Assembly (NCBI GenBank): GCA_031763465.1
Contig: JARFOE010000080.1
Location: forward strand, 9,315,357-9,368,550
From: Squatina squatina
Lineage: Eukaryota
Direction: 5' to 3'
DNA length: 53,194 nt
Both the position numbers and the translations under genes were made by a program. Positions 9,717 to 49,950 of this stretch are shown here, in pieces. Numbering within the stretch: the stretch's first letter is position 1; every line of letters starts with the position of its first letter. Under the pieces are notes generated by a model. It did no database searches. It saw only the letters and a list, made by a program, of their open reading frames with translations, and was not told the DNA's origin.

Positions 9717-9878
9717 CTTGAAAAGCAGCCGCATTTCGTGATATTAAAAATTTCAGAGTTGAGCTGGATGTTTGAAGTAAATTTTGAATATCTTGCCGAG
9801 ATGCCGCTTGGTATCGCTCCTCCATCTTTCTTGTGCAGCATGTTGGATCCTTTGACGTGCACACCTGAAGATCAGAAC
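9717..9878 (-). CDS. GPC5: Glypican-5 internal coding exon (exon 2 equivalent), 162 bp, phase 1/1
   Basis: Acceptor TTTTCCTTTTAG, donor GTAACC; translates (G)[53 protein letters not shown], closer to GPC5 ([18 protein letters not shown]) than GPC3. Not in the ORF track. Confidence 0.93.
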
Positions 9879-11649
9879 CTAAAAGGAAAATGGTAAAGAA
9901 TGAATGTATTTTTCCTCTACACTTGATTCAAAGTTGCTTTGCTCAAATTATCTGATAATTAATTTTAGAACTAAATTCCTACATTCTCATGTTCTTTGCA
10001 CTGACAAATTCAAATGATTTAATAATTCAATTTTTTTCATGTCAGGTGTAGACTGTATTGATGCACTGCTCAGATATCAATAAAGATTGGACAAACTTTC
10101 ATTTATTTGGCACCAATTACATCCTCAGGACACAGCACATTAATTGCTTTTTGAAGAACAGTCACTTTTTTCTACAGGCATCTGTGACAACCAATTTGTG
10201 AAAAGCTTGATCCCACATGCAGCACTGAGATTCACCGGTAATTATGTTTTGGTAATGGTGATGGTTGAGGCATGGACACCAGGAGGATTCCACCGAGCTG
10301 GTCGGGGCCAGAGTGGAGCCAGGTGAATAAAGAGCGAGGAAGANNNNNNNNNNNNNNNNNNNNNNNNNNNNNNNNNNNNNNNNNNNNNNNNNNNNNNNNN
10401 NNNNNNNNNNNNNNNNNNNNNNNNNNNNNNNNNNNNNNNNNNNGTGTGCAGGAGAAGGAAAATCACCCACCGGGCTCGGGAGGGTAAAAATCAGCTGAGG
10501 TTCTTGCACTTGCTGACCAACAACCCTGCCAAAAATATATGTCTGTGGGCACCAGATAAGGACAGAGTAGGCTTAGATTTTGTTTACCTATGTTCACCTC
10601 CCAATTCTTCTGTGTACTGCAGTGGGAGACACCACCTTCAGTAAAGGTGTAAGCAGCAAAAAATAAAAAGCTAATATGATTTCAGGACTTGGTGCTGAAG
10701 TATTGTAATCTAAGTACCATGTTTTTTTTGCTGACTGTGATCTAATGTAACTGCTAGCAACTGTACTATAAATAGCTGCACAGGGTCAATGATTGGAAAC
10801 CAAGTAATACAGAACTTTGAGACATGCTCACTGTTGCTTCAGAACACACAATTTGAAGGCAGCTTGTTCCTAACGATATGTACTTTGTCCTGATGTCAGT
10901 GAATTTCATTTTAAATTGGTTGGTGGGGGAGGACTTTTGTCCTTATGAGCATCACTGCTGCAGAACGGCACTCTTAGAGCTTTGTCTACCTAACGATTGG
11001 GACAGGACCGATGTTGAGTCAACATCTGCTTCAGTATCTGTGTGACCAGGTTGGACACGCAGCTGACCACAAAGTTTTTTTTCTTTAGGCAAAAACTTGG
11101 AGAATGAAATATTTACGTTGAAGATCCATAAACACATGCAAGTGTACTTTGAAAAGAAATCAAAATCCTCTGCCCCTCACACTCTCCTTTGATTTCCAAT
11201 TACGATGCACCATTTGTAATCGAGCTGTTGCTTCTAAAGCCATTCTGAGCCAGCAATGCAATTTGTGCAGTAATGGCCAGAGTGGAGTTTCCCTTATTTC
11301 ATTGTCACCATGTTCCAGTCTCAAACCACTCTCTTGAGAAATAGACACAGGCAGCAGTTCTCTGCCTGATATACAGCACCAACATTGTACCTGCAGGGAT
11401 ACACCACACTGCCACAAGTCCATTGGCAAGAAGGCTTAGGGACCCCAAAGTGTACAGCAAAGGGTATTACTAGGATTTAATCAGCTAAAAATATGCAGCT
11501 TGATAAAATAAACACATTGTCAATTATTTTGTCAAAGTAAGTGATTACAGTTTTGGCAAGTTGTGACCGTACACTCCTTTCCATTGGTAGAAGTAAAATG
11601 CCAATCCGAGCTTCTCTTTGGTGTTTCACTTCATATTGTTGGGATATTT

Positions 11650-11763
11650 ACGAACAATGACGGGCAGGTAAAGACCATCAGGTCCATCAAGCCTGTCTCA
11701 CACAATTGCGATACCTTGTGTATCACAATATATACACTCCACCCACCCGAAACCATGTGATCG
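11650..11763 (-). mobile_element. Short CR1-like 3' end
   Basis: ACGAACAATGACGGGCAGGTAAAGACCATCAGGTCCATCAAGCCTG, an inverted LINE 3' UTR pattern. Confidence 0.5.
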
Positions 11764-11764
11764 T

Positions 11765-13125
11765 CTAAGAGAGTTCTTGAGGAAATAATTAAATCTATTG
11801 ATGAAGGAAATGCAATGGATGGATTTTCAACAGGCTTTTGATAAGGTGTAAAAGGAGGCTTAAAATTAAAAGCACAAAAATATTACAGGATTGTGGCAGT
11901 ATGGTTAGGCAGCTGTTTATAATAAGTAGTGTACTGGTTAATAGATGTTTTTCAGCCTTTAGGGATGTAAACAGTGATATCCTCCAGCGTCAGAACTATT
12001 ACTCTTCTAAATATATATGTATGAAATTGATCTGGATTTGGGTATTGGGGATGCAATATCAAAATTTGCAGACAGCACAAAAATAGGGAGTATGATTCAC
12101 TGTGAAGAGGACTGTTCGAGACATCAAGAAGAGATAGATAGAATAATGGAATGGCCAAATAGATATCAGATGAAAATTATTGTGGTGAAATCTGAGTTGA
12201 TACATTCTGGGAGCAAGAAGGCGAGGAACTAGATATGAAATGGTAAAATTTTGAAAATAATTAGAAGAACAGAAAGACTTAGGGTTTTAGATNNNNNNNN
12301 NNAAATAGGGGACTATGGTTATCTTCAGGATGACATAGAAGGGTTAGTAGATTGGGTAGATGTGAAACTGAATGTGAAGAAATAGGAAGTGATACAGTTT
12401 GTGAGGAAGAATAAGGAGAACACTAAATTGTAAAACTTAAAAAAAAAAATTGAAGGAGCAGAGATACTTAGGGGTTCAGATGCATAAATCTTTACAAGCA
12501 GAAGGACAAGTTGATAAAGCTGCAAAAAACATTGCATCCTAGGTTTTTTGACTAGGGCATAGAATAAAAAAGCTAAAAGATAATGCTAAACCTACAGAAA
12601 TCTTTGGTTAGGCTACAGTTGAAATACTTCATCCAATTTTGGGCACCTTACTTAGGAAGCATGTCACTGCCAGAAAAGGGACAGAAGAGAGCTACTAAAT
12701 GATGTCAAGGACAAGGGGCTTTAGTCATGAGGGGAGAATAGAGTAACTGGGGTTTATCCTTTAGGGAAAAAAAGGTTGCAAAGAGATCTTACAGAAGTGT
12801 TCAAAACTAAGAGATCTTGATCGGGTCCAACCTATTTCCACAAGTTGATGATTCAGTGACCAATGGGTATAAAATTTAAGGTTGTCACCAAAAGAAAGAG
12901 GTTAGGTTTTATTTTAAACTCACAAGGCAGAATGTCAAACTAGAGGAAGTAGTGGAAGCAAAGTCCACAATCGCTTTTAAAAGGGAAGTGTATAAATGCT
13001 TGAAAAAGAAAAACAATTAAAGGGCACAGTAGGGGAAGAGAATATAACTTAGTGGATAGCTCTTTCAGAGAACCCACACAAGGACAATGGGTTGAATGGC
13101 CTCTTTCTGTGGTGTAAAATTCTCT
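11765..13125 (+). mobile_element. Decayed CR1 ORF2 (RT to 3' UTR), possibly two pieces across a 10-N gap
   Basis: AFDKV, ISKFADSTKIG, SLVRLQLKY.IQFWAP motifs; 3' UTR ATGGGTTGAATGGCCTCTTTCTGTG. Confidence 0.8.
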
Positions 13126-13719
13126 GGCTTTATTTGCATGCTCAGTTATCCTTTCCACATCCTTAAGTAATTTCCCTCACAGTTTGCCATGTCCCCAAAT
13201 TTGGTATTTTAGGCCGAGGTTCAAATCATTTATAGAAATAGAAAAAAGATTCCTGCCAATCCAAAAAAGAACACTTTCCCATTACTCTGTTTACCAGTCC
13301 CTCTTTATCCACACCATTACAGATTCCTTTATACCAAAATACCTTAATTATGTGGCACTTAATGTAATGCTGGAAAATCAAGGATCAAAGCTCTGGAGTG
13401 GAACAGAAAGCTAGTGTGGAATATTGTTGGGCATATTAGAAAATGGAATGGCTCAGTTTATTTTTCTTTTGTTGTAATGNNNNNNNNNNCAAGATGCTTA
13501 ATGTCCTACAGACACATCAAAAATAGATGTAATTGGTTAAGGCATTGAGTAGTTGAACCACACAGAGCAAGGATGTCCGAGGTTAACTCGCAGTCTGTGC
13601 TTAATTAGCAAATCTCAACTGGGACAATGGTAAATGCTGCAATTAGTCTCAGATTGAGGACTGATTGAGGAGGGGAAAATGAAACAGGGTTCCCATGATG
13701 ATTCGGTATGATGCTGCTT

Positions 13720-14068
13720 GGAATGAGGAAATATAAATATTTGAAAATTGAGCTGTTTGCATTACAACAGTTGGCATTACAGGATGATTTGATTGAGGTT
13801 TTTAAAATTATTAAAAGCATTGGACAGATTAGATTGAAACAGACTGTTAAATTGAAATTGTGAGGTCTACAAGAGAACAGAGATACAAGATTAAATGCAA
13901 GATATTCAGGACAGAGTGGAGGAAGTTTATTTTAAAAATGGAGAATTGTAAGGCTGTGGAAAGCACTACCAGAATTCATAACGGAAGCACAAACCATCTC
14001 TCAGCATTGAAGAATAGATTAGATAGGTGGCTGAAAGGGAAAAAAATGAATATGAAGCAGGGCAAGCA
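13720..14068 (+). mobile_element. CR1 C-terminal fragment
   Basis: DDLIEVFKIIK motif and LKNRLDRWL terminal helix. Confidence 0.65.
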
Positions 14069-14399
14069 NNNNNNNNNNNNNNNNNNNNNNNNNNNNNNNN
14101 NNNNNNNNNNNNNNNNNNNNNNNNNNNNNNNNNNNNNNNNNNNNNNNNNNNNNNNNNNNNNNNNNNNNCTGTAGGTTCAATTTGTGTGTTGTGCAATTTG
14201 CAATGATTTAAAACACTAGCGCTAGCCTATTAGGCAGTGGGCATAAGTCACTAAGTTTGAATAACCGACAGCTTTCACGAATATGTCAAACAGTGGCAGT
14301 GTACAAATCAGAACATGTATCTCCAAGCTAGAAACAAAAAAATTGGGTGGAGGGTTGTAATTAGAGAATTCTGGACTTGTGCCTCTCTTGATTTATTCT

Positions 14400-14685
14400 T
14401 GGGATGTAGGCTGACATTTATTGCCCTGATAACTGAGTGCCTTGTTAGGCCACTTCAGAGGGCAGTTGGAGTGGGACTGGCAGGACTACATGTTTCATCC
14501 CTTAACAACATTGACGGTTGGGGTTTTATGACTATCCAACAGCTTACTGATATCAGATCTGTTTCCAAATTTTAAAGAATTGAATTCAAAATTCTCACTG
14601 CCATAGAGGGATTTGAGCTGCCCTTTAGCATATTAGTCCAGGCCTCTGGATTACCAGTCCAGTGACCTCACTAGCTACTATACAC
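14400..14685 (-). mobile_element. tRNA-derived SINE with LINE-like tail
   Basis: Reverse complement head GTCACTGGACTGGTAATCCAGAGG..CTCAAATCCC; tail GGGCAATAAATG..CTACATCCC like the LINE end at 6150; related copy at 50690. Confidence 0.55.
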
Positions 14686-15026
14686 ATTCTACCCCTCAAG
14701 TTAACTGTCACTTGGATCCCTCTGGACATGCTGGGTGGCTGCATGATGGCACATCACCTGTAAAGGGGGGAGTTAGATTGCTGGTCTGTGGTTTAGTGGT
14801 TAGAGTTTAATTACCAAAACTTATTTTTGTTTCTAGTGGTTTTGTATTTGATTTGGATTAGTGTGAATGATGAATGCCGTTAATCCGATTATATCCATTT
14901 TTTAAAAAACATTAATTCGTACTTGTTCTTTGATTATCCCAGCAGGTGTGAATGTTTAAAGGGACCATCGGTTTGAAGATTTGGTGAATGAGCGTCAAAT
15001 GTGAAGAATTGAGAACATGGGATTTG

Positions 15027-15108
15027 GTCAGAGTTGTGCAAAAGTGCTTACAGTGCAGGTAGTGTCTAAAATCTACTGCAGTGGAGGCACTTCAAACATT
15101 ATATTGAC
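15027..15108 (+). ncRNA. MIR17: pre-mir-17 position of the cluster; predicted 5p AAAAGUGCUUACAGUGCAGGUAG (15040-15062)
   Basis: GTCAGA...TTGAC flanks as in mir-17; 3p ACTGCAGTGGAGGCACTT; first in cluster. Confidence 0.92.
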
Positions 15109-15180
15109 AGTAACTCCTCATTGAACCTGGAATTTTCAGAATATTGTGCTTGCAGCTTGCTCTGCATCAGTGAAGTCTCT

Positions 15181-15251
15181 TGTGTTAAGGTGCATCTAGT
15201 GCAGATAGTGAAGTAGAGTAGAATCTACTGCCCTAAGTGCTCCTTCTGGCA
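15181..15251 (+). ncRNA. MIR18A: pre-mir-18a; 5p UAAGGUGCAUCUAGUGCAGAUAG (15186-15208)
   Basis: Exact miR-18a-5p and 3p ACTGCCCTAAGTGCTCCTTCTGG. Confidence 0.97.
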
Positions 15252-15329
15252 TAAGTAACTCTGATCAGCTTGTGTGTACCAATCTCCAGATTGGTAGAAT
15301 AGCTATGTGAATCCCAACTAGTTGTTAGT

Positions 15330-15410
15330 GCAGTTTTCTACCAGTTTTGCATGGTTGCACCACAAGAAGAAATTAGTTGTGCAAATCTATGCAAAACTGA
15401 TGGTGGACTG
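15330..15410 (+). ncRNA. MIR19A: pre-mir-19a; 3p UGUGCAAAUCUAUGCAAAACUGA (15378-15400)
   Basis: Exact miR-19a-3p, complementary 5p AGTTTTGCATGGTTGCAC, purine loop CAAGAAGAA. Confidence 0.96.
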
Positions 15411-15464
15411 GGTTGACTGCTAAGTGGTGGCATGAAAACATGCTGTTTGGAGGTTACAGCTCAA

Positions 15465-15535
15465 GCAGTATTAAAGTGCTTATAGTGCAGGTAGTGTTAT
15501 AGTAATCTACTGCAATATGAGCACTTGAGTACTAC
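15465..15535 (+). ncRNA. MIR20A: pre-mir-20a; 5p UAAAGUGCUUAUAGUGCAGGUAG (15472-15494)
   Basis: Exact miR-20a-5p and 3p ACTGCAATATGAGCACTT. Confidence 0.96.
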
Positions 15536-15582
15536 TAGCTAACAGACTGCAGCTGCATAAACTTTAACTATGAAAAGCTTCT

Positions 15583-15656
15583 CTAGTTAGTTTTGCAGGT
15601 TTGCATCCAGCTGTTAATAATTATTGCTGTGCAAATCCATGCAAAACTGACTATAG
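15583..15656 (+). ncRNA. MIR19B1: pre-mir-19b; 3p UGUGCAAAUCCAUGCAAAACUGA (15628-15650)
   Basis: Exact miR-19b-3p; 5p AGTTTTGCAGGTTTGCATCCAGC is the mir-19b-1 type. Confidence 0.95.
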
Positions 15657-15705
15657 TTGTAAAATACAACCAGTGTTAAAGTATCCCTTTTGTACATGCA
15701 ACCCT

Positions 15706-15780
15706 GTCTTGCACCGGTTGGGATTTGTTGCAATGCTGACAGATGTATGTGGTATTGCACTTGTCCCGGCCTGTTAAGGA
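15706..15780 (+). ncRNA. MIR92A1: pre-mir-92a; 3p UAUUGCACUUGUCCCGGCCUGU (15753-15774)
   Basis: Exact miR-92a-3p with 5p GGTTGGGATTTGTTGCAATGCT. Confidence 0.95.
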
Positions 15781-16539
15781 TGGTGGGCACAGTTGGGAAA
15801 TAACACCAAGAACCTGGATCCAAGAAGACAGAACCAAATAAGCGGAGGCTGTGTCTGGTAGCTTGAATCTAAATTAAGTTACTTCACTTGTGTTTAATTT
15901 TAGATTAAGCTAGTGCAGCAGCACTTGTTTGAAGAATATTTTAAAGACTGCCTTGCACTGGTTTAGGTGAAGTGCCAATCTTGATACTGGGATATGGATG
16001 GCATGTTGCCTCAGGATGGGAGGCTTCTTGAACTGAGTTCTTGTGGTGGTTCATAATGCTAGGATTTTGATCCTGCCCATGGTTGTGACTCAAGTGGTAA
16101 TTCTGTTGCTTTGGTGATCAATGTCATGGAGCTAGGAAGCACTGTTAAGATTGGTGATTGCAGTGGTGTATCTACAGTATACACTAGTCATGATTCCCTA
16201 GTAGGGAGGTGCATATTGAATCCACCATTTTTGCAACCAAGCAGATGTCTGTCCTTGGATGATGTCATGCTACTTGTAGCTACACCATCCATCTCTTACA
16301 GACGGAAGGTTTTGAGGCAGTGAGCCTATGTTCATTGTAAGTACAATCAGTTTAGATCCTTTGAGAAATCCACAATTAATTGGGTAATGTGGGATCTAAT
16401 GGGTGGGGGGTTCAGGAGAAAGGAACAGTAAATTGTCAAGACAAAAGGATATGGCAGAAATGCTAGGCAGTGTTTGGGTTATGAGATTGAGTGACAGGAA
16501 GGGACAGTGCATATGAACACGAGCAACAAAGGGTCATTG

Positions 16540-16854
16540 TAAGGAAAAGTGGTAGACAAAATTAAAGGCTTTCTAAATGGATGTAGTATCTGTAACTAAA
16601 TGAACTAATGGTGTAAATAGAGATACAGGTATTATCTGATAGCCATTACAGAGACATGGTTACAGGGAGATCAAAGCTGGGAACTCAATATTCAGGGATA
16701 TTTTCCTTTTTGGAGGACAGGTGGGAAGGAAAAAGTGATGGGGTATCTCCTAGATGAAATGTACAGTTGAGATGCTCTAGGCTCAATATAGAATCCATCT
16801 GGGTGGAGGTTTAAAAACACAGCAAGTGAAAAGACACGAGCAGGAGCAGTGCAT
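16540..16854 (+). mobile_element. CR1 ORF2 endonuclease fragment (left of RTE insertion)
   Basis: LIAITETWLQGDQSWELNIQGY, ESIWVE motifs. Confidence 0.8.
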
Positions 16855-17519
16855 CAACAGTCCCTTGGGTTTGAGGATGACTTGCTGCCACTCGTGTTGT
16901 TGGTCTGAGGTGGCTAAACAGTCCAATGCAGGAACTGCAGACCTGGCCGCAAGTAGGGCAGGTAATGAGTGGCAGGGATGAGCGTGTTGCTGTGTGCTCC
17001 CTCAACATTTGTCCTCAATGCACTTCTGCTGGAGAGACTCAACAGTTGGTGCCTTCATGAACAGCTCTTCTCCATTGCAGGTGGTCTTGGACCACCAATT
17101 CCCATGAGTCAGTGGGGGTTGCATTTCTTCAATGAGGGTGTCCTTGTAGCATTTCCCATGGTGGAGTTCAGAATAAAGTGCTTGTTCTGCGAGTCTTTTA
17201 TTCGGCACGTGGATGACATGACTAGCCCATCGCAGCTGATTGTAACCAGTGCCTTGATGTTGGCCTGGGTGAGGATGCTGATGTCTGTGTTTGTCCTGCC
17301 AGTTTAATTGCAGGATTTTGCAAAAGCAGTGTTGGTGGTATTTCTCAAACTTTGAGGTGTCTGCTGTACAGTGCCTGTGTCTCTGGTATCATTGCCCTGT
17401 AGACTATGATCTTGGTCCTCAAACACTCTTCCTCGGGTACATGAAGGCTGTGCTGGGTCTTGTCAAAGTCTGCCCTACTGCAGTGGGGGGGGTACCTATA
17501 CATGACTGAGTCTCCTCTC
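16855..17519 (-). mobile_element. 5'-truncated RTE-clade LINE nested in CR1
   Basis: TKIIVYRA, MPNKRLAEQALYSEL and C-terminal CPTCGQVCSSCIGLFSHLR zinc-finger motifs. Confidence 0.8.
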
Positions 17520-18464
17520 AGTAGTGTATAAGCTGCCACACTAGGAAAGGGTATAAATCAAATAATGGGTGGGGGGAGAGGGAGAGGGAAGGGTGAGAGT
17601 GAACTTTAATCTTGTAGATTGGGTTAATCAAATTGGAAATGATAACCATGAGAACAAATTCAGAGTGCATCTGGGATAGCTTCCTAGAGCAATACATTAT
17701 GGAGCCAACCAGGGGACAGGCTATTTTGGATCTGGTAATGACCGGTTTAATGATCTGAGTAAAAGATCCTCTAGGAAACAGTGATCATAACATGGAATTT
17801 AGCATTCAGCTTGAGTGAGAAACTTTGGTCTGAAACTGTATTAAACTTAAATAAGGGGACTTACGAAGGAATGAGGACAGAGTTGACTAAAGTGGGCAAA
17901 TAGATTAGCAGGTAAAACAGTAGACAAGCAATGGCAGACATTCAAGGAGATAATTCATGATTACTTTCAGCAAAAATATATCCCAGTGAGATTCTAAGGG
18001 ATGGATGAACCAACCATGGCTAACCAAGTAAGTTCAAAAGGGTATTGAGTTGAAAGAGAAAACATAAGGTGGCAAAAGTTAGTAGGCCTGAAGATTGGGA
18101 TAAATTCAGAAACCAGCAAAGGAGGACAAAATAAACTGAGGACAAACTAGCAAGGAACATAAACTGACAAGAGCTTCTTTAAGTAAATAAAAAGGGAGGT
18201 CAAAGTGAACATAGGCCCCTTAGAGAATGAGGCTGTGGAAATAGTTATGGGGAACAAGGAAATGGCAGAGGAGTTAAACAGATATTTTGCATCAGTCTTT
18301 ACAGTAGAAGATACTACGAACATCCCATTAATAAAAAATACGGGGGAGGAATTAAATACCATCACCATCACTAGAGAATTAATATTAGGCAAACTAATGG
18401 GGCTAAAGGCTGATAAGTCCCCTGGCCCTGATGGTTTGCATCCTAGGATCCTAAAAGAAGTGGC
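17520..18464 (+). mobile_element. CR1 ORF2 continuation (endonuclease end to pre-RT)
   Basis: EPTRGQAILDLV, LGNSDHN, EMAEELNRYFASVFT, KSPGPDGLHPRILKEV. Confidence 0.9.
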
Positions 18465-19215
18465 NNNNNNNNNNNNNNNNNNNNNNNNNNNNNNNNNNNN
18501 NNNNNNNNNNNNNNNNNNNNNNNNNNNNNNNNNNNNNNNNNNNNNNNNNNNNNNNNNNNNNNNNTAATATCGGGGCCAATGTTATTTTTCTTGAAAATAA
18601 CCTTGGAAATGATAGCTCAAGAGATGTCCTAGTTATTTCACTAGATTTTAAACATTTAAGAATAACACCTCTTTAATTTCTGCCGCAGCAGGTAATCAAT
18701 AAGCCACAAGTCACAGGAACCTCACTTTTTCTTTAAATAAATATGCTTCACTTGAAATAGTCCAATGCACTGAGAACAGTGATTATATGTAATAAATTTT
18801 TATCCCTCCTACCACTTGATTACTAAAATGTATTTATTGTAGTATTGCAGCAGAATAAGAACCTTGGAAATTGCCAACAAAATCCAGTTTCCATGGTTAC
18901 ATGCTGATGACAAGACATCCGATCTCTTTTTGTGATGTGTGCACTCTAATAAGTAGATGCATTGACAAATTCACATTTTCACTGTGGATATATTTTGATG
19001 GCCCCTTCTGTAGTTACATATTACTGAGTTTAATTCTATAGCTGTTTGGATTGTGATGCAAGTAGTGTTTGATACACTCAGCAAAATTATCAACCATGGG
19101 TTATGGTCAGGTATAGCTTTCCGTTAAGGAGAAAATGCTACAATTATTTCATGCAATAATGTACAGAACTTCCAAGCTGAGTACAGTTGCAGAATGATTT
19201 CCATACTGATAAATG

Positions 19216-19851
19216 AGGCCAAAATTCCCCTGCTGTGTGCCTCCTGTTAGCGCCTCAGGGCGCAAAAGTGTTTTCACCCAGTGGGGCGCTACCGGTTCCT
19301 GCAAAATTATGTGGGAGTTAGCGGAGGCGCAAAACTGGTAGCACCCCGCTTCCGCCAGTAGCGCCCCGGGCTGCTGCACCTCTGCCGATGATGACATCGC
19401 CATGCGCGGTGGAAACTGGGCAACGTCCCGTGAGACCGCCACAGGTGATGTCAGCACCAGCCTCGCGTGTCGTGAACCGGGCCACACTCTGCTTGCGGGG
19501 TGAAATTTAAAGGGGAGGTGCGTGGCACCATTTTGTCTTCTCGGCTGACTTACCAGTCTGGCCTCCCTTTATTTTTTCCACGGGGTCCGTGCCACGCTGG
19601 TGCAACCCAGCACTCCCCTTCTGTGCCAGGCTGCGGCCATGGCACCCGCGCATCCCCAGTGGCCTAGTGGAGGCCCCTCGTCCCACTGCAGAGCTTGCAG
19701 CGTGCCCTCCCCTTTAACAGGCCACATAGTGCTGCAACATTCGCGTGCTTATCACCCCAGTACCGCCCGACATTGCACTCCCCTTCTTTCAGGGGCGGTC
19801 AGCCCGATTTCGCTGCTGGGACGGGACTTCTGCACTGGGTGCAGGAAGACC
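19216..19851. mobile_element. GC-rich Harbinger-type element end
   Basis: AGGCCAAAATTCCCCT..CCTGTTAGCGCCTC matches the reverse complement of 46020-46062. Confidence 0.55.
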
Positions 19852-20023
19852 NNNNNNNNNNNNNNNNNNNNNNNNNNNNNNNNNNNNNNNNNNNNNNNNN
19901 NNNNNNNNNNNNNNNNNNNNNNNNNNNNNNNNNNNNNNNNNNNNNNNNNNNTCTGTTTTTCACTTAAATTGGAAACTGCCAGGCAGAATTTTACTTTCCC
20001 TCTTCCCCCTGCCAGGTTTATAT

Positions 20024-20188
20024 GGAATTGAATTTCTGCAGGGGTTTTCCTGCTAATCCACAAGAACTTCAGCAGAATAGCTGTGAAAACCCTGGGAAAA
20101 CAGCATTAACACTATTCACACTATTTTGAAAGGTTTCTGTGGCTTTTATGACAGACAAGCAAGAGAACTCCTGTGGAAATTCCATCCC
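20024..20188. mobile_element. Decayed MITE
   Basis: Imperfect terminal inversion GAATTTCTGCAGGGGTTTTCCTGCT / AGCAAGAGAACTCCTGTGGAAATTC; related copies at ~23003 and ~34883. Confidence 0.5.
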
Positions 20189-21399
20189 TCCACAAGCCTC
20201 TCTTACTTTGAGATGTACTTTGGAATATAAAAGGTTAAACCTATAGCTTTTAAAAAAAAATAAAATCACTTCTGCATGATCTATTCTGGTGCTACATGAC
20301 AGATAATAACAGGAAATTATTGCTTCTACCTTAATGTACGCCATACCTGACAGTGCTGCTCATTGCAGACTGTTCTTTAATGTAACTATAATTACTAACA
20401 ATACTCTTATTCTCGTGCATCACAAATCAGTCATCTAAGTAAATGTACTGTGTTGTGCTTTAATAAATCATTATTATACAAACAAGAATTGGCTTTTAGA
20501 ATTTCAGATTTATGGAAGTTTATTGGCCAGATTGTAGAAGATCTTGCAATAAAATCCTGGCAAAGAATAACAGCTGTGCACATTTATTGTGTTGAAGGCT
20601 AGCTGCAGAGAAATGTCTGGAGGCTATTACAATTGTCATAGATATTGTAATATTCATAAAGCATTTCACAGGATTCATTAGAAAACAAATAAGAGGGATG
20701 ATATTTAATTCTAGATCTAGAACTTCATGGAGTATGTTCTAGCACTGGTAATGTTGATATTTAAATCTAATTCCCGCCATGGTTATTATTCATATTATTT
20801 CAATGATATAATAGACCTTAATAGCTGGGGCAATGCATTGAATAAAGGAAATTTCCCCCTCCTATCCACATAACTTCAAAGTAGCTAATAGNNNNNNNNN
20901 NNNNNNNNNNNNNNNNNNNNNNNNNNNNNNNNNNNNNNNNNNNNNNNNNNNNNNNNNNNNNNNNNNNNNNNNNNNNNNNNNNNNNNNNNNNATGCCCTAC
21001 TCCTGCTCCTATCTTCTATGTTTCCTTCCCCCTCTGCACCTAATTCTCACTCTCACCAAACTCCCGTCGTCAGTCCGTTCAGCAGATTCACCCAACTCTC
21101 ACTAAGCTTTGTGCTAAATGGAGGCCGCAGCTTCACATCCAATCTGAAAGATCAATGTTACTGAGATCAGCTACTGAGAAGAGACTCGAGATTGAAGCTG
21201 GGATCTCTGGCCTGTCTGTGTCAATCTATGCCTAGGCAGTACACATACTCAGACAGCCATTAGAGCAAAACAGAGCAATTTAAAAGAAATTCAAAACCTT
21301 CTTTCATTCATAAACAAAGTTTCTTTTATTTGAAAGGAACGGAATATCATAAAATGTCTGGTCACAGGGATTGCAACGCATGATTAAACCATGTATGTT

Positions 21400-22593
21400 C
21401 ATTGTGATGCAGTCAGGATGTCAAATTCATGCTGCCTGCTAATTTCCACGATTGCTGGGTCCAGCCAGTGCTCCCTGCACTGCTTATTGGCTGGATACAT
21501 CTGCAGGGGGCATGTTACTGCGAGTGGCTAGCACTATTTAAAACCAGTCTGTACCTCTTAAAGATGGAGGTGCCGCATAACAGGAGGCAGCAGCAAAGAA
21601 CTGGAGGAGGACCAGCGCGCCTACATGTTTTAACCCCCATGAAGGGGACAGTGCTGGCTCTCATGGGAAGAAACATCACTGAGGCTGTGACTACTCGTGG
21701 TGCTGGAGGGATTGATGATGAGGGGATCTGCATCCCTAATCCTCCTTCTTTCTTCCCACTTCTCCCTCATCCCATGGACTCAAAAGCTGCTGTTGGTATA
21801 GGCATGCACTTCTTACTTTCTCTTCTCCCCTCACCAAAATCTTATCTTTGTCCCTTTTTCATTTCGGATACTCAGGAATTGGAACCTTCCCAGTCAGAGG
21901 AGGTAAAGTAAAGATGAAGGGACACCATCACTCGATCTTACACTCGCTGCCACCAGCTCAGAGACTGACACTGCATGTATTTTAGTGGCTAGGTTAAAGG
22001 AAGGATCTGTACCTGAGGAACCCACAAATTAACGCAAGCGCACAGGAGCCAGGGCAGTGGGAAAGGATAGTGCAGGTGCCAGCTCATCGGATGGCGAGGT
22101 CGCACACTAGTCCTGCTGCAGAGGAGTCAGAGGGGGACTTTGATGGACCAGGCTACAGACAAAGGTTGATGGGTGCTTGCTGCACTGGAGAACCTGCCAG
22201 AAAGCCTGTGCACAATATTAAGGAGCATGGAGGAGTCCAGCAATAACTTGACACAGAGCTTTGTGCAGAGCTTGGAGCCCATCCTTTCCAACATGGAATG
22301 GGTAGTCATCTCCATCATACATCTGTGGAACCCACCATGATGCAGCATCTGATGGCCGATGTCACCACTTCCATTGCAGAGCAAACAGCTTCCATCAAAG
22401 GTCTGAGTGCTGCAGTGAAATTTTAGACTGCAGCCTTGCAAGCTCAGACTGCAGTCATCATGGCTCTGGATATCACTATTTAAAGAGGCTTCCAGGGCAA
22501 CACAGCAGTCCATCAATCTATTCTCCAACAGATCAGTAGGACTGCTGAGGCACCGGCCCAGGGGACTGGCAGTGGCTCCATGGAGCATAAACC
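21400..22593 (+). mobile_element. Decayed coding-like repeat, possibly the accessory (Myb/SANT-type) gene of a Harbinger element
   Basis: GC-richer coding-like composition, broken frames, intron-like pyrimidine tract at ~21740-21870; family call is by resemblance only. Confidence 0.35.
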
Positions 22594-39158: not shown

Positions 39159-39322
39159 GGATCACGTGAGCAGCTTGCAATTGCTGAATTTGCCAGGGCC
39201 TTACTGGTTATTCCAAAGACTCTAGCAGTAAATGCAGCTCAGGATTCTACGGACCTGGTTGCTAAGTTGCGTGCATTCCACAACGAGGCCCAGGTAAATC
39301 CTGAACGCAAAAATCTGAAATG
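39159..39322 (+). CDS. TCP1: T-complex protein 1 subunit alpha (CCT1), late internal coding exon, 164 bp
   Basis: Acceptor TTTTCTGTTTTAG, donor GTAAGT; GSREQLAIAEFARALLVIPKTLAVNAAQDSTDLVAKLRAFHNEAQVNPERKNLK(W). Not in the ORF track. Confidence 0.95.
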
Positions 39323-41354: not shown

Positions 41355-41612
41355 GAGAGTGGAGTGAGTGGGGGTGAGTGTGTGGTGAGTGTGGGGGTGA
41401 GTGTGCAGTGAGAGTGGGTGAGTGTGTGGTGAGTGTGGGGGTGAGTGTGGAGTGAGAGTGGGGTGGGTGTGGGATGGGTGTGGGGGTGCGCGCGGGGTGA
41501 ATGTGGGGGTGAGTGTGGGAGTGAATGTGGAGTGAGTGTGGGGTGAGTGGTGGGGTGAATGTGGGGGTGAGAGCGGGGTGAGTGTGGGGGTGAGAGGGGG
41601 GGAGTGTGGGGG
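41355..41612 (+). repeat. G/T-rich minisatellite, (GAGTGTGGGGGT)n-like
   Basis: Direct reading; many GGGG runs, almost no C. Confidence 0.85.
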
Positions 41613-43252
41613 TCAGGGTACGATCGCTGCACCAGAATGGAGAAGTCCAGGTCCCCCAATATTGCCCTTAGGAACTCATTATCATCAGGTCAGTGTGCTG
41701 GGAGGATCACACCGGCAAAGTGTGAAGCAAGATCGTGTCACTGCTAGCAGAGTCGTGGCCCTCAGGTAAGCAAAGGACGGGGGTGGCCGGGAGGGACATC
41801 AGAAGTGGTGGGATAGGGGCAGAGATCAGGCCTCGGACAGGGATCACTGACTGGTGGGAGTGGGAGAGGTGATCGGGTGATCTATTGAAAAGCAGGCGCT
41901 GCCGGGCCAAATGTCTAGGCCAAGGTATCAGTCACTTTGTTAATCCACCCTACGATGTAGAAGGTCAGTGCATTTTGGTTTGGGCAACATTTTAAGTTTT
42001 TCTATCTGATCTTTGATATTAGTGACTGACATGATAAATGTGCCTCTTTAGAATGAAAATCTGTATCAGCTTTTTGTTTTTTTTAAAAAGAGAATTTTCA
42101 TATATTGATGAACTTATATTGGCCATACGCAGTCAGTTTGAGTTCTTGAGAATATATGAAATTTACATTTTGTATTTACCTATGAGCTCAGCCTTGACAC
42201 AGTCTAATTGTTTCAAACTCTGCAAAAGTAGCAGTGTTCAAACTTGGCAGCACTCTTTCCATCTATCTCGGTGAATTGCATACATGAAAACAATAGCACA
42301 CAATTCCTTAAGGTAAGAGTTCTAGCAATACTGCGGACAAGGCAAGATCAATAAATCTTTAACAAAACTGTGAGTGTTGGTAATGCTGCTGTTTTAATAG
42401 TTTTGTTTTCAATATTCTCAAAGGAAAACTGCAGGTTTCACATAATTTATATTCCCTACATGGAATAATCCTTTGGTTTCAGTTCTAGTCATAATTTATT
42501 ATCTTTTGATGCTGATAGAAATATTAGACGAGTAGAACTGGAACAGTCAATGATGTGATTGCTCATATTCAATAATTGATCTGTTGGACCACCATCCAAA
42601 CTCAAATAATAACATGTTACATACATCAAAAATTGTCAGCTATTCTTAAGGCACATCTGATCACTTTATTTACAATTCAGAGAATGAAGTTCAGTTGGCA
42701 AGTTACCGCACTCACTGTCTTCTATCATCTCCATCTTTGATACCTTCCCTCTTCCCAGTACAGTGTTTCTAGTTCAATCTCCTCCTGCATGCCTTTATCT
42801 TAGACCCCATTTTGCCATGTCTCCATTTCAGACCCCTCCCATTCCCTTAATTATATCTTAGATCCCTGGGATCTGTTCCATGTCAGCATTAGCTTCAAGC
42901 CGTTTCATTAGCTTCCTATTCTTCCTTGACTCTGCACATTCACAGCCTCTTTTGGAGCAGAGCTATCCCACTATCCATTACATTAGTAAAAGGGATAGAC
43001 TAAAACTGAGAGTGCTGGATGGAGATATAGAAAGCAGGTAGTAGCTGGGCCTGAGACAAGCATGGAGCAGTCCGATGGAGTAAGAACTAAAGCAGACATA
43101 GAGAGATGGCTGGGGCAGAGTGATGAGAGNNNNNNNNNNNNNNNNNNNNNNNNNNNNNNNNTGACATAGCTTGTTAATTTGGAAACCTCAATGCAAATGA
43201 GGTTGCTTACTAAACAAGTAAAGGAAAAGCATTTTTCTCTTATTCAATTCAG

Positions 43253-43450
43253 TGTAATGAACTTGGATGATCTGACCAGGAGAGGCCTTTATCTCAGTGA
43301 CATCCCACTACATGATGCTACACGTGAACTTGTTCTGCTAGGTGAGCAGTTCAGAGAAGAGTACAAACTTACACAGGAACTAGAAATTTTGACTGACCGC
43401 TTGCAACATACACTGCGAGAATTAGAAGATGAGAAGAAAAAGACAGACAG
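43253..43450 (+). CDS. GUCY1B1: Soluble guanylate cyclase beta-1, H-NOBA/coiled-coil exon, 198 bp, phase 2/2
   Basis: Acceptor TTTTTCTCTTATTCAATTCAG, donor GTAAAC; (S)[65 protein letters not shown](R). Confidence 0.95.
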
Positions 43451-48540: not shown

Positions 48541-48979
48541 TATAAGACGGGGGCCCAATTGGTGTGGCCTGAAACCGGCCACAGCATTCGGGGCTCCATA
48601 GCTGCGGGGGCGCCACGCTGGCAGTGAGGGTCACTGACCTGGAATTGGTGACTTAGTCGCCATTCCGGGTAAGCGCAATGTGGCAATGCTAAACAAGCAT
48701 TGCCANNNNNNNNNNNNNNNNNNNNNNNNNNNNNNNNNNNNNNNNNNNNNNNNNNNNNNNNNNNNNNNNNNNNNNNNNNNNNNNNNNNNNNNNNNNNNNN
48801 NNNNNGGAGACATCTCCAAAACCAGCAGAGAGACAGAAGGGCACAGGCATATGAGGTGGGGGTGAGGCAGCAGCAGCTCCTGAGCATTACCACGCCCAAC
48901 AACCACCTGACATGCCAGAGCCACCTGCACCAGTGGTGGCACAGCCCAGACCAGTGCAGCCTCTTCCTAGAGGGGGGAG

Positions 48980-49950
48980 GGCAAGGGGACATCAAAAGAG
49001 GTATTCCACAGAGTGTACAGCTACCTCCACATGACCGATGAGCAATCCCTTCGTAGACTGCGCTTCAAAAAGGAGGTCATAACAGAACTGTGCCAGCTCC
49101 TGCAGGCTGACCTGCAGCCTCAGAGCAGGGCTTCCACTGCTCTCTTTGTGACAGTTAAAGTCACAGTCGCACTCAATTTTTATGACAATGGCACATTTCA
49201 AAGTGCCACGGCTGACATTTCTAACATCTCGCATTACACTGCCTACTGCTGCATCAGACAGGTCACCACCGCACTGTACCGGAGAAGAAGGGAGTACATA
49301 TCCTTCCCGTATAGCCACCAGGATCAGCACGAGAGAGCTGTGGCCTTTGTCCATGTTGCCAACTTCCTCAAAGTCCAGGGCATCATTGTCTCCATACACA
49401 TCATCATGAGGGCTCCTGTAGTAAAGCTGCTGCCTTCATGCATCACAAGGGCTTCCATTCCATTAATATACCGGTCTATGCCCGCTTTCCTGACCACTTC
49501 CATGGTTCTTTTATATTGCAGTAATCCTGCATTCCTCACGCCACCCCCCACCCCACCCCACACCCCCACCATCCTCTCCCCCCAGTTTTTGACCCTGCAT
49601 AACAAGTGTGAAGCTGGTTACTTGGGGAGAAGGGATATCACCCATACTCTTGGCTTATGACTCCTCTTAGAAACACACACTTATTGACCAACCTGTACTA
49701 CCACCGGATCCACAAGTTGACTACAACCCTCAATGTGCAGACCATTGTAGTGTTCAAACAATGATTCCACTGCATGGACAAGTATGACAGGGACAACATA
49801 TGGAGCCTCCATTGGACAAGGGCCTTTAACTAGTTGATGAATAAAACACAAATGATATTGAGGATGCTACAGAAGCAGGAGAGCACAAACACCAGCCTGC
49901 AGCCAGAACTCTTAGGCAGCAGCTCATTGAATAATGCTTCAGCTGAACTA
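48980..49950 (+). pseudogene. Decayed PIF/Harbinger (HARBI1-like) transposase
   Basis: YSYLHMTDEQSLRRLRF, VKVTVALNFY..GTFQ, IRQVTTAL, KVQGII (first catalytic Asp lost), frameshifted LGEKGYHPYSWLMTP. Confidence 0.88.

What the first reader, a model, noticed from the sequence alone, without database searches (positions are those of the whole stretch)
15027..15780. Complete six-hairpin miR-17~92 polycistron, invisible to the ORF track
Six pre-miRNA hairpins lie in ~750 bp on +, in the canonical order 17-18a-19a-20a-19b-92a; five mature arms are identical to the known vertebrate sequences (seen). No mir-363-like hairpin is visible downstream and a 19a-type member is present, which favours the miR-17~92 locus over miR-106a~363 or miR-106b~25 (established cluster compositions). 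It is a known system but probably unannotated in this species (inference).
Basis: partly seen in the sequence, partly recalled or inferred. Interest (0 to 1): 0.75.

Follow-up and report, generated by a model that had tools for sequence, protein, structure and literature searches.

The report
Shark miR-17~92 microRNA cluster
This is a shark's intact copy of a well-known vertebrate cluster of six microRNAs that controls growth and development; it is real but ordinary, and most likely the same locus as human miR-17~92.

Summary
Observation confirmed. Six hairpins lie at 15030-15783 (+) in the order 17-18-19-20-19-92, all above Rfam gathering scores. They fold better than nearly all shuffles, and 5 of 6 have a CNNC motif at +16 to +18. 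Five guide arms equal mouse miR-18a, 19a, 20a, 19b and 92a (by eye). The sixth differs from miR-17 at base 1 and equals a listed miR-106a sequence; its seed is unchanged. The host is a shark. The miR-17~92 (1-alpha) call still stands at about 0.85. Its support is passenger arms closer to mouse 17~92, no miR-363 in 2.7 kb of unbroken downstream sequence, and a GPC5 exon 5 kb away, though on another contig of a patchwork scaffold. No mammalian-type 19b-92a switch hairpin is predicted. Expression and annotation status were not tested. Known system, low interest.

The parts
15040..15096 (+). Pre-miRNA 1, Mir-17-P1 type (miR-17 position). Predicted guide 5p 15040-15062, which starts with A; seed as in miR-17. 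Ends are inferred.
   Evidence: Rfam mir-17 15030-15105, 61.7 bits; fold z -2.53; ends; arm equals listed miR-106a-5p and is 1 base from mouse miR-17-5p
15186..15249 (+). Pre-miRNA 2, Mir-17-P2 type (miR-18a). Guide 5p 15186-15208.
   Evidence: Rfam mir-17 60.0 bits; z -2.57; both arms identical to mouse miR-18a and 2 differences each from miR-18b (by eye)
15343..15400 (+). Pre-miRNA 3, Mir-19-P1 type (miR-19a). Guide 3p 15378-15400.
   Evidence: Rfam mir-19 66.7 bits; z -5.01; 3p identical to mouse miR-19a-3p
15472..15530 (+). Pre-miRNA 4, Mir-17-P4 type (miR-20a). Guide 5p 15472-15494.
   Evidence: Rfam mir-17 71.5 bits; z -3.59; 5p identical to mouse miR-20a and 2 differences from miR-20b
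15589..15650 (+). Pre-miRNA 5, Mir-19-P2 type (miR-19b-1). Guide 3p 15628-15650.
   Evidence: Rfam mir-19 86.8 bits; z -6.41; 5p identical to mouse miR-19b-1-5p and about 3 differences from 19b-2-5p
15715..15774 (+). Pre-miRNA 6, Mir-92-P1 type (miR-92a-1). Guide 3p 15753-15774.
   Evidence: Rfam mir-92 71.8 bits; z -4.01; 5p has 2 differences from mouse 92a-1-5p and 6 from 92a-2-5p
15114..15670 (+). Five CNNC (SRSF3-type) motifs 16-18 nt behind the inferred 3' Drosha cuts, at 15114, 15266, 15417, 15547 and 15667; none in the 26 nt behind hairpin 6.
   Evidence: binomial P for at least 5 of 6 is 2e-4 with cluster composition
14169..18464 (.). The unbroken 4,296-nt contig that carries the cluster, bounded by 100-N spacers. 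From about 16300 on it looks like LINE-type repeat remains (recalled likeness, no library test).
9717..9878 (-). Context only: one glypican-5 coding exon (162 nt, AG/GT bounded) on a separate 770-nt contig.
   Evidence: Pfam Glypican E 1.2e-16; 98% identity to Scyliorhinus canicula glypican-5a; 31 of 54 residues identical to glypican-3 (by eye); boundaries read

Best explanation
This is the shark orthologue of miR-17~92 (MirGeneDB cluster a, sub-genome 1-alpha), intact. Shown in the sequence: six family-grade hairpins in the canonical order, unchanged seeds of the miR-17, 18, 19 and 92 families, and CNNC motifs in register. Inferred from established knowledge: one polymerase II primary transcript on + is cut by Drosha-DGCR8, helped by SRSF3 at the CNNC sites, then by Dicer. 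The guides (5p of hairpins 1, 2, 4; 3p of 3, 5, 6) load into Argonaute and repress mRNAs through bases 2-8. The A at base 1 of hairpin 1 leaves the seed, and so the target set, as in miR-17.
For: Rfam and folding. CNNC at +16 to +18 in 5 of 6; mouse miR-17~92 has SRSF3-bound CNNC at +18 to +20 behind 17, 18a, 19a and 20a. Arm differences to mouse 17~92 versus 106a~363 (by eye, all 8 arms where the paralogues differ): 1/2, 5/5, 0/2, 0/2, 0/2, 5/6, 0/3, 2/6, total 13 versus 28. Clusters b and d are excluded because they lost the 19a type. Cluster c keeps Mir-92-P2c in catshark and counts 7 genes in elephant shark, yet no such gene lies in 2.7 kb of unbroken sequence. A GPC5, not GPC3, exon is 5.1 kb away, and human miR-17~92 neighbours GPC5. 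Bamboo shark liver reads include miR-17 and miR-92 guides, so the families are expressed in sharks.
Against: Hairpin 1 5p equals the listed miR-106a-5p, while bamboo shark reads show a C-start miR-17. Beta-genome copies evolve faster, so any slowly evolving copy would resemble mammalian cluster a, which weakens the 13-versus-28 count. The GPC5 exon is on another contig and the opposite strand, in a scaffold that also holds lone TCP1 and GUCY1B1 exons. Shark cluster a is also credited with a seventh gene, Mir-92-P2a, which is not here; that it lies elsewhere as miR-367 is recalled, not shown. The primer table labels the hairpin 2 arm miR-18b, against the table; it also files the 19b 3p arm under a 5p name, so I trust it less. 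No shark precursor sequences could be seen.
Confidence: 0.85

Rival explanations
1. It is the shark 1-beta cluster (miR-106a~363 orthologue), which in chondrichthyans keeps a 19a-type gene and may have stayed near the ancestral sequence. Here it would have lost miR-363. It would work by the same mechanism.
For: First arm equals listed miR-106a-5p. Catshark has Mir-19-P1c, and its loss is placed in bony fishes. Slow shark evolution could mimic a-type arms (caveat). The 3p arm of hairpin 1 ties 5/5.
Against: It needs loss of Mir-92-P2c, which catshark and elephant shark keep. 7 of 8 discriminating arms are closer to mouse a and none is closer to mouse c. The neighbouring exon is GPC5. An A-start also occurs in another bamboo shark miR-17-family read, so it is not a marker of cluster c.
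Confidence: 0.1
2. It is a silent or lineage-specific duplicate of the cluster, or the A at base 1 is a sequencing or assembly error in a short A-run of a fragmented assembly.
For: The window is 31 contigs (median 1,523 nt) joined by 100-N spacers. No CpG island, E-box or E2F motif lies on the 858 nt of contig upstream. There are no expression data.
Against: Seeds, stems and CNNC spacing are all intact, which is unlikely for a dead copy. The promoter may simply lie on another contig. The six hairpins sit on one unbroken contig.
Confidence: 0.05

Closest known systems
miR-17~92 / MIR17HG polycistron (MirGeneDB Mir-17-P1a, P2a, Mir-19-P1a, Mir-17-P4a, Mir-19-P2a, Mir-92-P1a)
   Same: Six hairpins in the same order on one strand; about 750 nt versus about 800-825 nt in human and mouse; five guides identical; CNNC behind the first four; GPC5 nearby.
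   Different: Base 1 of the first guide is A, not C. There is a CNNC behind 19b, where mouse has none. No predicted NPSL2 hairpin between 19b and 92 (-2.2 kcal/mol for 15662-15705 versus about -9.3 reported), and no leader-to-spacer pairing beyond shuffles.
miR-106a~363 cluster (cluster c, 1-beta)
   Same: First guide equals the listed miR-106a-5p; in sharks it has the same first six genes in the same classes.
   Different: No miR-363 downstream; the 18, 20, 19b and 92 arms are a-type; the neighbouring exon is GPC5.
miR-106b~25 (cluster d) and the chondrichthyan-only cluster b (2-alpha)
   Same: Same three families and the same seeds.
   Different: Both lost Mir-19-P1; b carries Mir-17-P3b and Mir-92-P2b. 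The bamboo shark miR-19 and miR-92 variant reads that map beside miR-25 differ from the arms here.

Membership tests
MIR-17, MIR-19, MIR-92 precursor families | Covariance-model score above the curated cut-off | tested here: met
   6 of 6 above gathering score
Canonical microRNA genes | Single hairpin of about 60 nt with a basal stem and conserved seed | tested here: met
   Pre-miRNA lengths 57-64 nt; seeds match mouse
Canonical microRNA genes | Reads from both arms with uniform 5' ends and 2-nt overhangs | not testable with these tools
   No small-RNA data for this species; bamboo shark reads are only indirect
Cluster 1 (a or c) of Mir-17/19/92 | Has Mir-19-P1 and lacks Mir-17-P3 | tested here: met
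   Order 17-18-19a-20-19b-92 with three MIR-17 hairpins; definition
miR-17~92 (cluster a, 1-alpha) | Arms of a-type rather than c-type | tested here: met
   7 of 8 discriminating arms closer to mouse a, 1 tie (by eye); hairpin 1 5p equals the listed miR-106a
miR-17~92 (cluster a, 1-alpha) | Synteny with GPC5 | tested here: inconclusive
   GPC5 exon 5.1 kb away, but on another contig, opposite strand, in a patchwork scaffold
miR-17~92 (cluster a, 1-alpha) | Groups with shark P1a/P2a/P4a precursors in a tree | not testable with these tools
   The alignment rows in the supplement of PMC8789304 are cut
miR-17~92 (cluster a, 1-alpha) | MYC/E2F-driven host transcript | tested here: inconclusive
   No CpG island or motif on the 858 nt upstream on this contig; the promoter may be on another contig
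miR-106a~363 (cluster c, 1-beta) | Mir-92-P2c (miR-363) directly behind Mir-92-P1 | tested here: not met
   No exact seed in 15781-18464 and no Rfam match in 15785-16400
Clusters b and d | No Mir-19-P1 (19a type) | tested here: not met
   Hairpin 3 is 19a type

The most novel reading that the evidence does not exclude
The shark cluster keeps all guides and the SRSF3 motifs but lacks the NPSL2 / repression-domain switch between miR-19b and miR-92a that holds back miR-92a in mammals, and it releases an A-start (miR-106a-like) first guide. It would then show the polycistron before that self-inhibiting layer arose, and serve as a natural control for it. A less likely alternative is a near-ancestral 1-beta copy that lost miR-363.
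Probability: 0.25. Interest if true: 0.35.

Novelty: new member of a known kind. Interest (0 to 1): 0.13.

Why it matters
Little in itself. [quoted passage not shown] It adds one annotation. It also gives a caution: in cartilaginous fishes a 19a-type member does not tell miR-17~92 from miR-106a~363. The one testable point of wider use is whether the mammalian folding switch on miR-92a is missing here.

Tried and rejected
Seventh hairpin at about 15898-15972 as a remnant of Mir-92-P2: z -2.1 to -2.6 and a seed with one mismatch on its 3' arm. Rejected because there is no Rfam match at E<=10, no likeness to hairpin 6 (274 of 300 shuffles score as well), and it fails a seed-in-hairpin filter that hairpin 6 and one chance site passed among 200 sites.

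Long-range pairing of the leader 14850-15026 with each of 6 spacers: none beat shuffles (46-126 of 200 as good). NPSL-like spacer hairpins: none significant in 6 folds. No 3' splice-site-like stretch upstream at the cut-off used. A recalled glypican exon-1 motif found nothing, and tblastn with 4 shark GPC5 and 3 shark or ray TCP1 proteins found one exon of each gene. Pfam scan of 416 of 425 stop-to-stop frames of 45 aa or more gave 3 hits; left out were 5 frames overlapping the cluster and 4 touching N runs. No tRNA. No end overlaps between contigs. Comparing chromosome lengths of GPC5 and TCP1 hits failed, as I saw no shark species shared.

The identity of Mir-92-P2a was not found. No paper tying both clusters to both glypicans was found.

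Full report
Observation. Rfam at curated thresholds finds 6 matches in the 53,194-nt window, all on + between 15030 and 15783, in the order mir-17, mir-17, mir-19, mir-17, mir-19, mir-92, at 60-87 bits against cut-offs of 47-50. A relaxed scan of 10000-22000 added only weaker matches to these same hairpins (reverse strand or unrelated models) and one E=5 match elsewhere. Each hairpin folds with z from -2.5 to -6.4 and survives folding of the whole region. Hairpins 1, 2 and 4 resemble each other, as do 3 and 5 (0 of 300 shuffles as good), as expected of tandem duplicates; 3 of 18 consensus pairs among 1, 2 and 4 show compensatory change. A CNNC motif lies 16-18 nt behind the inferred 3' cut in 5 of 6 hairpins (P about 2e-4).

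Mature arms. I compared by eye with the mouse table in PMC4499379. Five guide arms are identical to miR-18a-5p, 19a-3p, 20a-5p, 19b-3p and 92a-3p. The first guide has A where mouse miR-17-5p has C at base 1, and equals the sequence listed as miR-106a-5p in PMC12540329. That table disagrees in places: it labels the hairpin 2 arm miR-18b and files the 19b 3p arm under a 5p name. The seed is unchanged. The start at 15040 is inferred from alignment, not from reads.

Organism and surroundings. The window is 31 contigs, median 1,523 nt, joined by 100-N spacers, with no end overlaps. The cluster lies on one unbroken contig, 14169-18464. A Pfam scan of 416 of 425 frames gave three lone exons: glypican at 9717-9878 (-), TCP1 at 39159-39322 (+) and soluble guanylate cyclase beta-1 at 43253-43450 (+). 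The glypican exon is 98% identical to Scyliorhinus canicula glypican-5a, 93-96% to other sharks and about 80-87% to bony vertebrate GPC5, but only 31 of 54 residues match glypican-3. The animal is therefore a shark and the exon is GPC5. No second exon of GPC5 or TCP1 was found, so order and orientation across spacers cannot be trusted. Still, a GPC5 exon two contigs from this cluster is unlikely in a random join (inference), since human miR-17~92 neighbours GPC5.

Which paralogue. MirGeneDB describes four gnathostome clusters; cluster 1 (a, c) lost Mir-17-P3 and cluster 2 (b, d) lost Mir-19-P1. The 19a-type hairpin thus excludes b and d but not c. Catshark has Mir-19-P1c, bony fishes lost it, and elephant shark counts 7, 6, 7 and 5 genes in a, b, c and d. 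For a: over the 8 arms where the mouse paralogues differ, differences to a versus c are 1/2, 5/5, 0/2, 0/2, 0/2, 5/6, 0/3 and 2/6 (13 versus 28, by eye). There is no miR-363-like gene in the 2.7 kb of contig downstream, though catshark keeps Mir-92-P2c. GPC5 is nearby. Against a: the miR-106a-like first arm; a C-start miR-17 read in bamboo shark, although another miR-17-family read there starts with A; faster evolution of beta copies, which biases the mouse comparison; and a seventh a-gene, Mir-92-P2a, credited to sharks and humans but absent here. Human miR-17~92 has six members, so that gene lies elsewhere in humans; that it is miR-367 is my recall and was not found. I put a at 0.85, c at 0.10, and a silent copy or error at 0.05.

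Mechanism. Shown: hairpins, seeds, CNNC spacing. Inferred from established knowledge: a single primary transcript, Drosha-DGCR8 then Dicer cutting, Argonaute loading and seed-based repression. In mouse, SRSF3 binds CNNC behind miR-17, 18a, 19a and 20a; the shark has CNNC at those four and also behind 19b. In mammals a small hairpin (NPSL2, about -9.3 kcal/mol) between 19b and 92a competes with the basal stem of miR-92a and can pair with a 5' repression domain. Here that spacer folds to -2.2 kcal/mol over 44 nt, or -7 over 58 nt, neither better than shuffles. The leader does not pair with it beyond chance (55 of 200 shuffles as good), and hairpin 6 has a strong basal stem. This suggests the switch is absent but rests on folding predictions alone. 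No promoter features were seen on the 858 nt upstream.

A seventh hairpin at about 15898-15972 was tested as a Mir-92-P2 remnant and not supported.

Papers seen. PMC8728216: passages, section 5, supplement rows. bioRxiv 10.1101/2021.09.01.458616: passages; its supplements are closed. PMC8789304: passages, supplement searches and parts 4-5; alignment rows were cut, and they bear directly on the a-versus-c call. PMC4499379 and PMC12540329: table passages. PMC10328067: passages and section 6. PMC5766152: passages. PMC3824591 and PMC4005632: passages. PMC3789328: passages and supplement rows. PMC4834410, PMC3940925, PMC10417697 and PMC8759566: searched, nothing used. Whether this species' copy is annotated was not testable.

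Verdict. A real, intact shark copy of a known cluster, most likely miR-17~92 itself. New member of a known kind; interest 0.13.

Noticed in passing
window 1-53194: The window is 31 short contigs joined by 100-N spacers, plus five shorter N runs, and holds lone exons of three unrelated genes. Gene order across spacers is unreliable for any finding in this window.
   Followed up: partly
window 9717-9878 (-): Glypican-5 coding exon, 98% identical to catshark glypican-5a; no other GPC5 exon found in the window.
   Followed up: yes
window 39159-39322 (+): Single TCP1 (CCT-alpha) exon, identical in protein to shark and ray TCP1, on a 664-nt contig.
   Followed up: yes
window 43253-43450 (+): Single soluble guanylate cyclase beta-1 exon.
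   Followed up: partly
window 15898-15972 (+): Extra hairpin about 125 nt behind miR-92 with a one-mismatch miR-92-family seed on its 3' arm; no Rfam match, not supported as a microRNA.
   Followed up: yes
window 15040: Base 1 of the first guide is A (miR-106a-like) where mouse and bamboo shark miR-17 have C; the seed is unchanged.
   Followed up: partly
window 48971-49660 (+): 229-aa open frame with no Pfam match at E<=0.001; it looks like a Harbinger-type transposase nuclease remnant (recalled likeness).
   Followed up: no
window 16300-18464 and 14560-14700: Purine-skewed stretch with LINE-like frames (e.g. 18187-18465), and a SINE-like piece upstream of the cluster; identities are recalled, no repeat library was available.
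   Followed up: no
window 41355-41613: Low-complexity tandem repeat.
   Followed up: no
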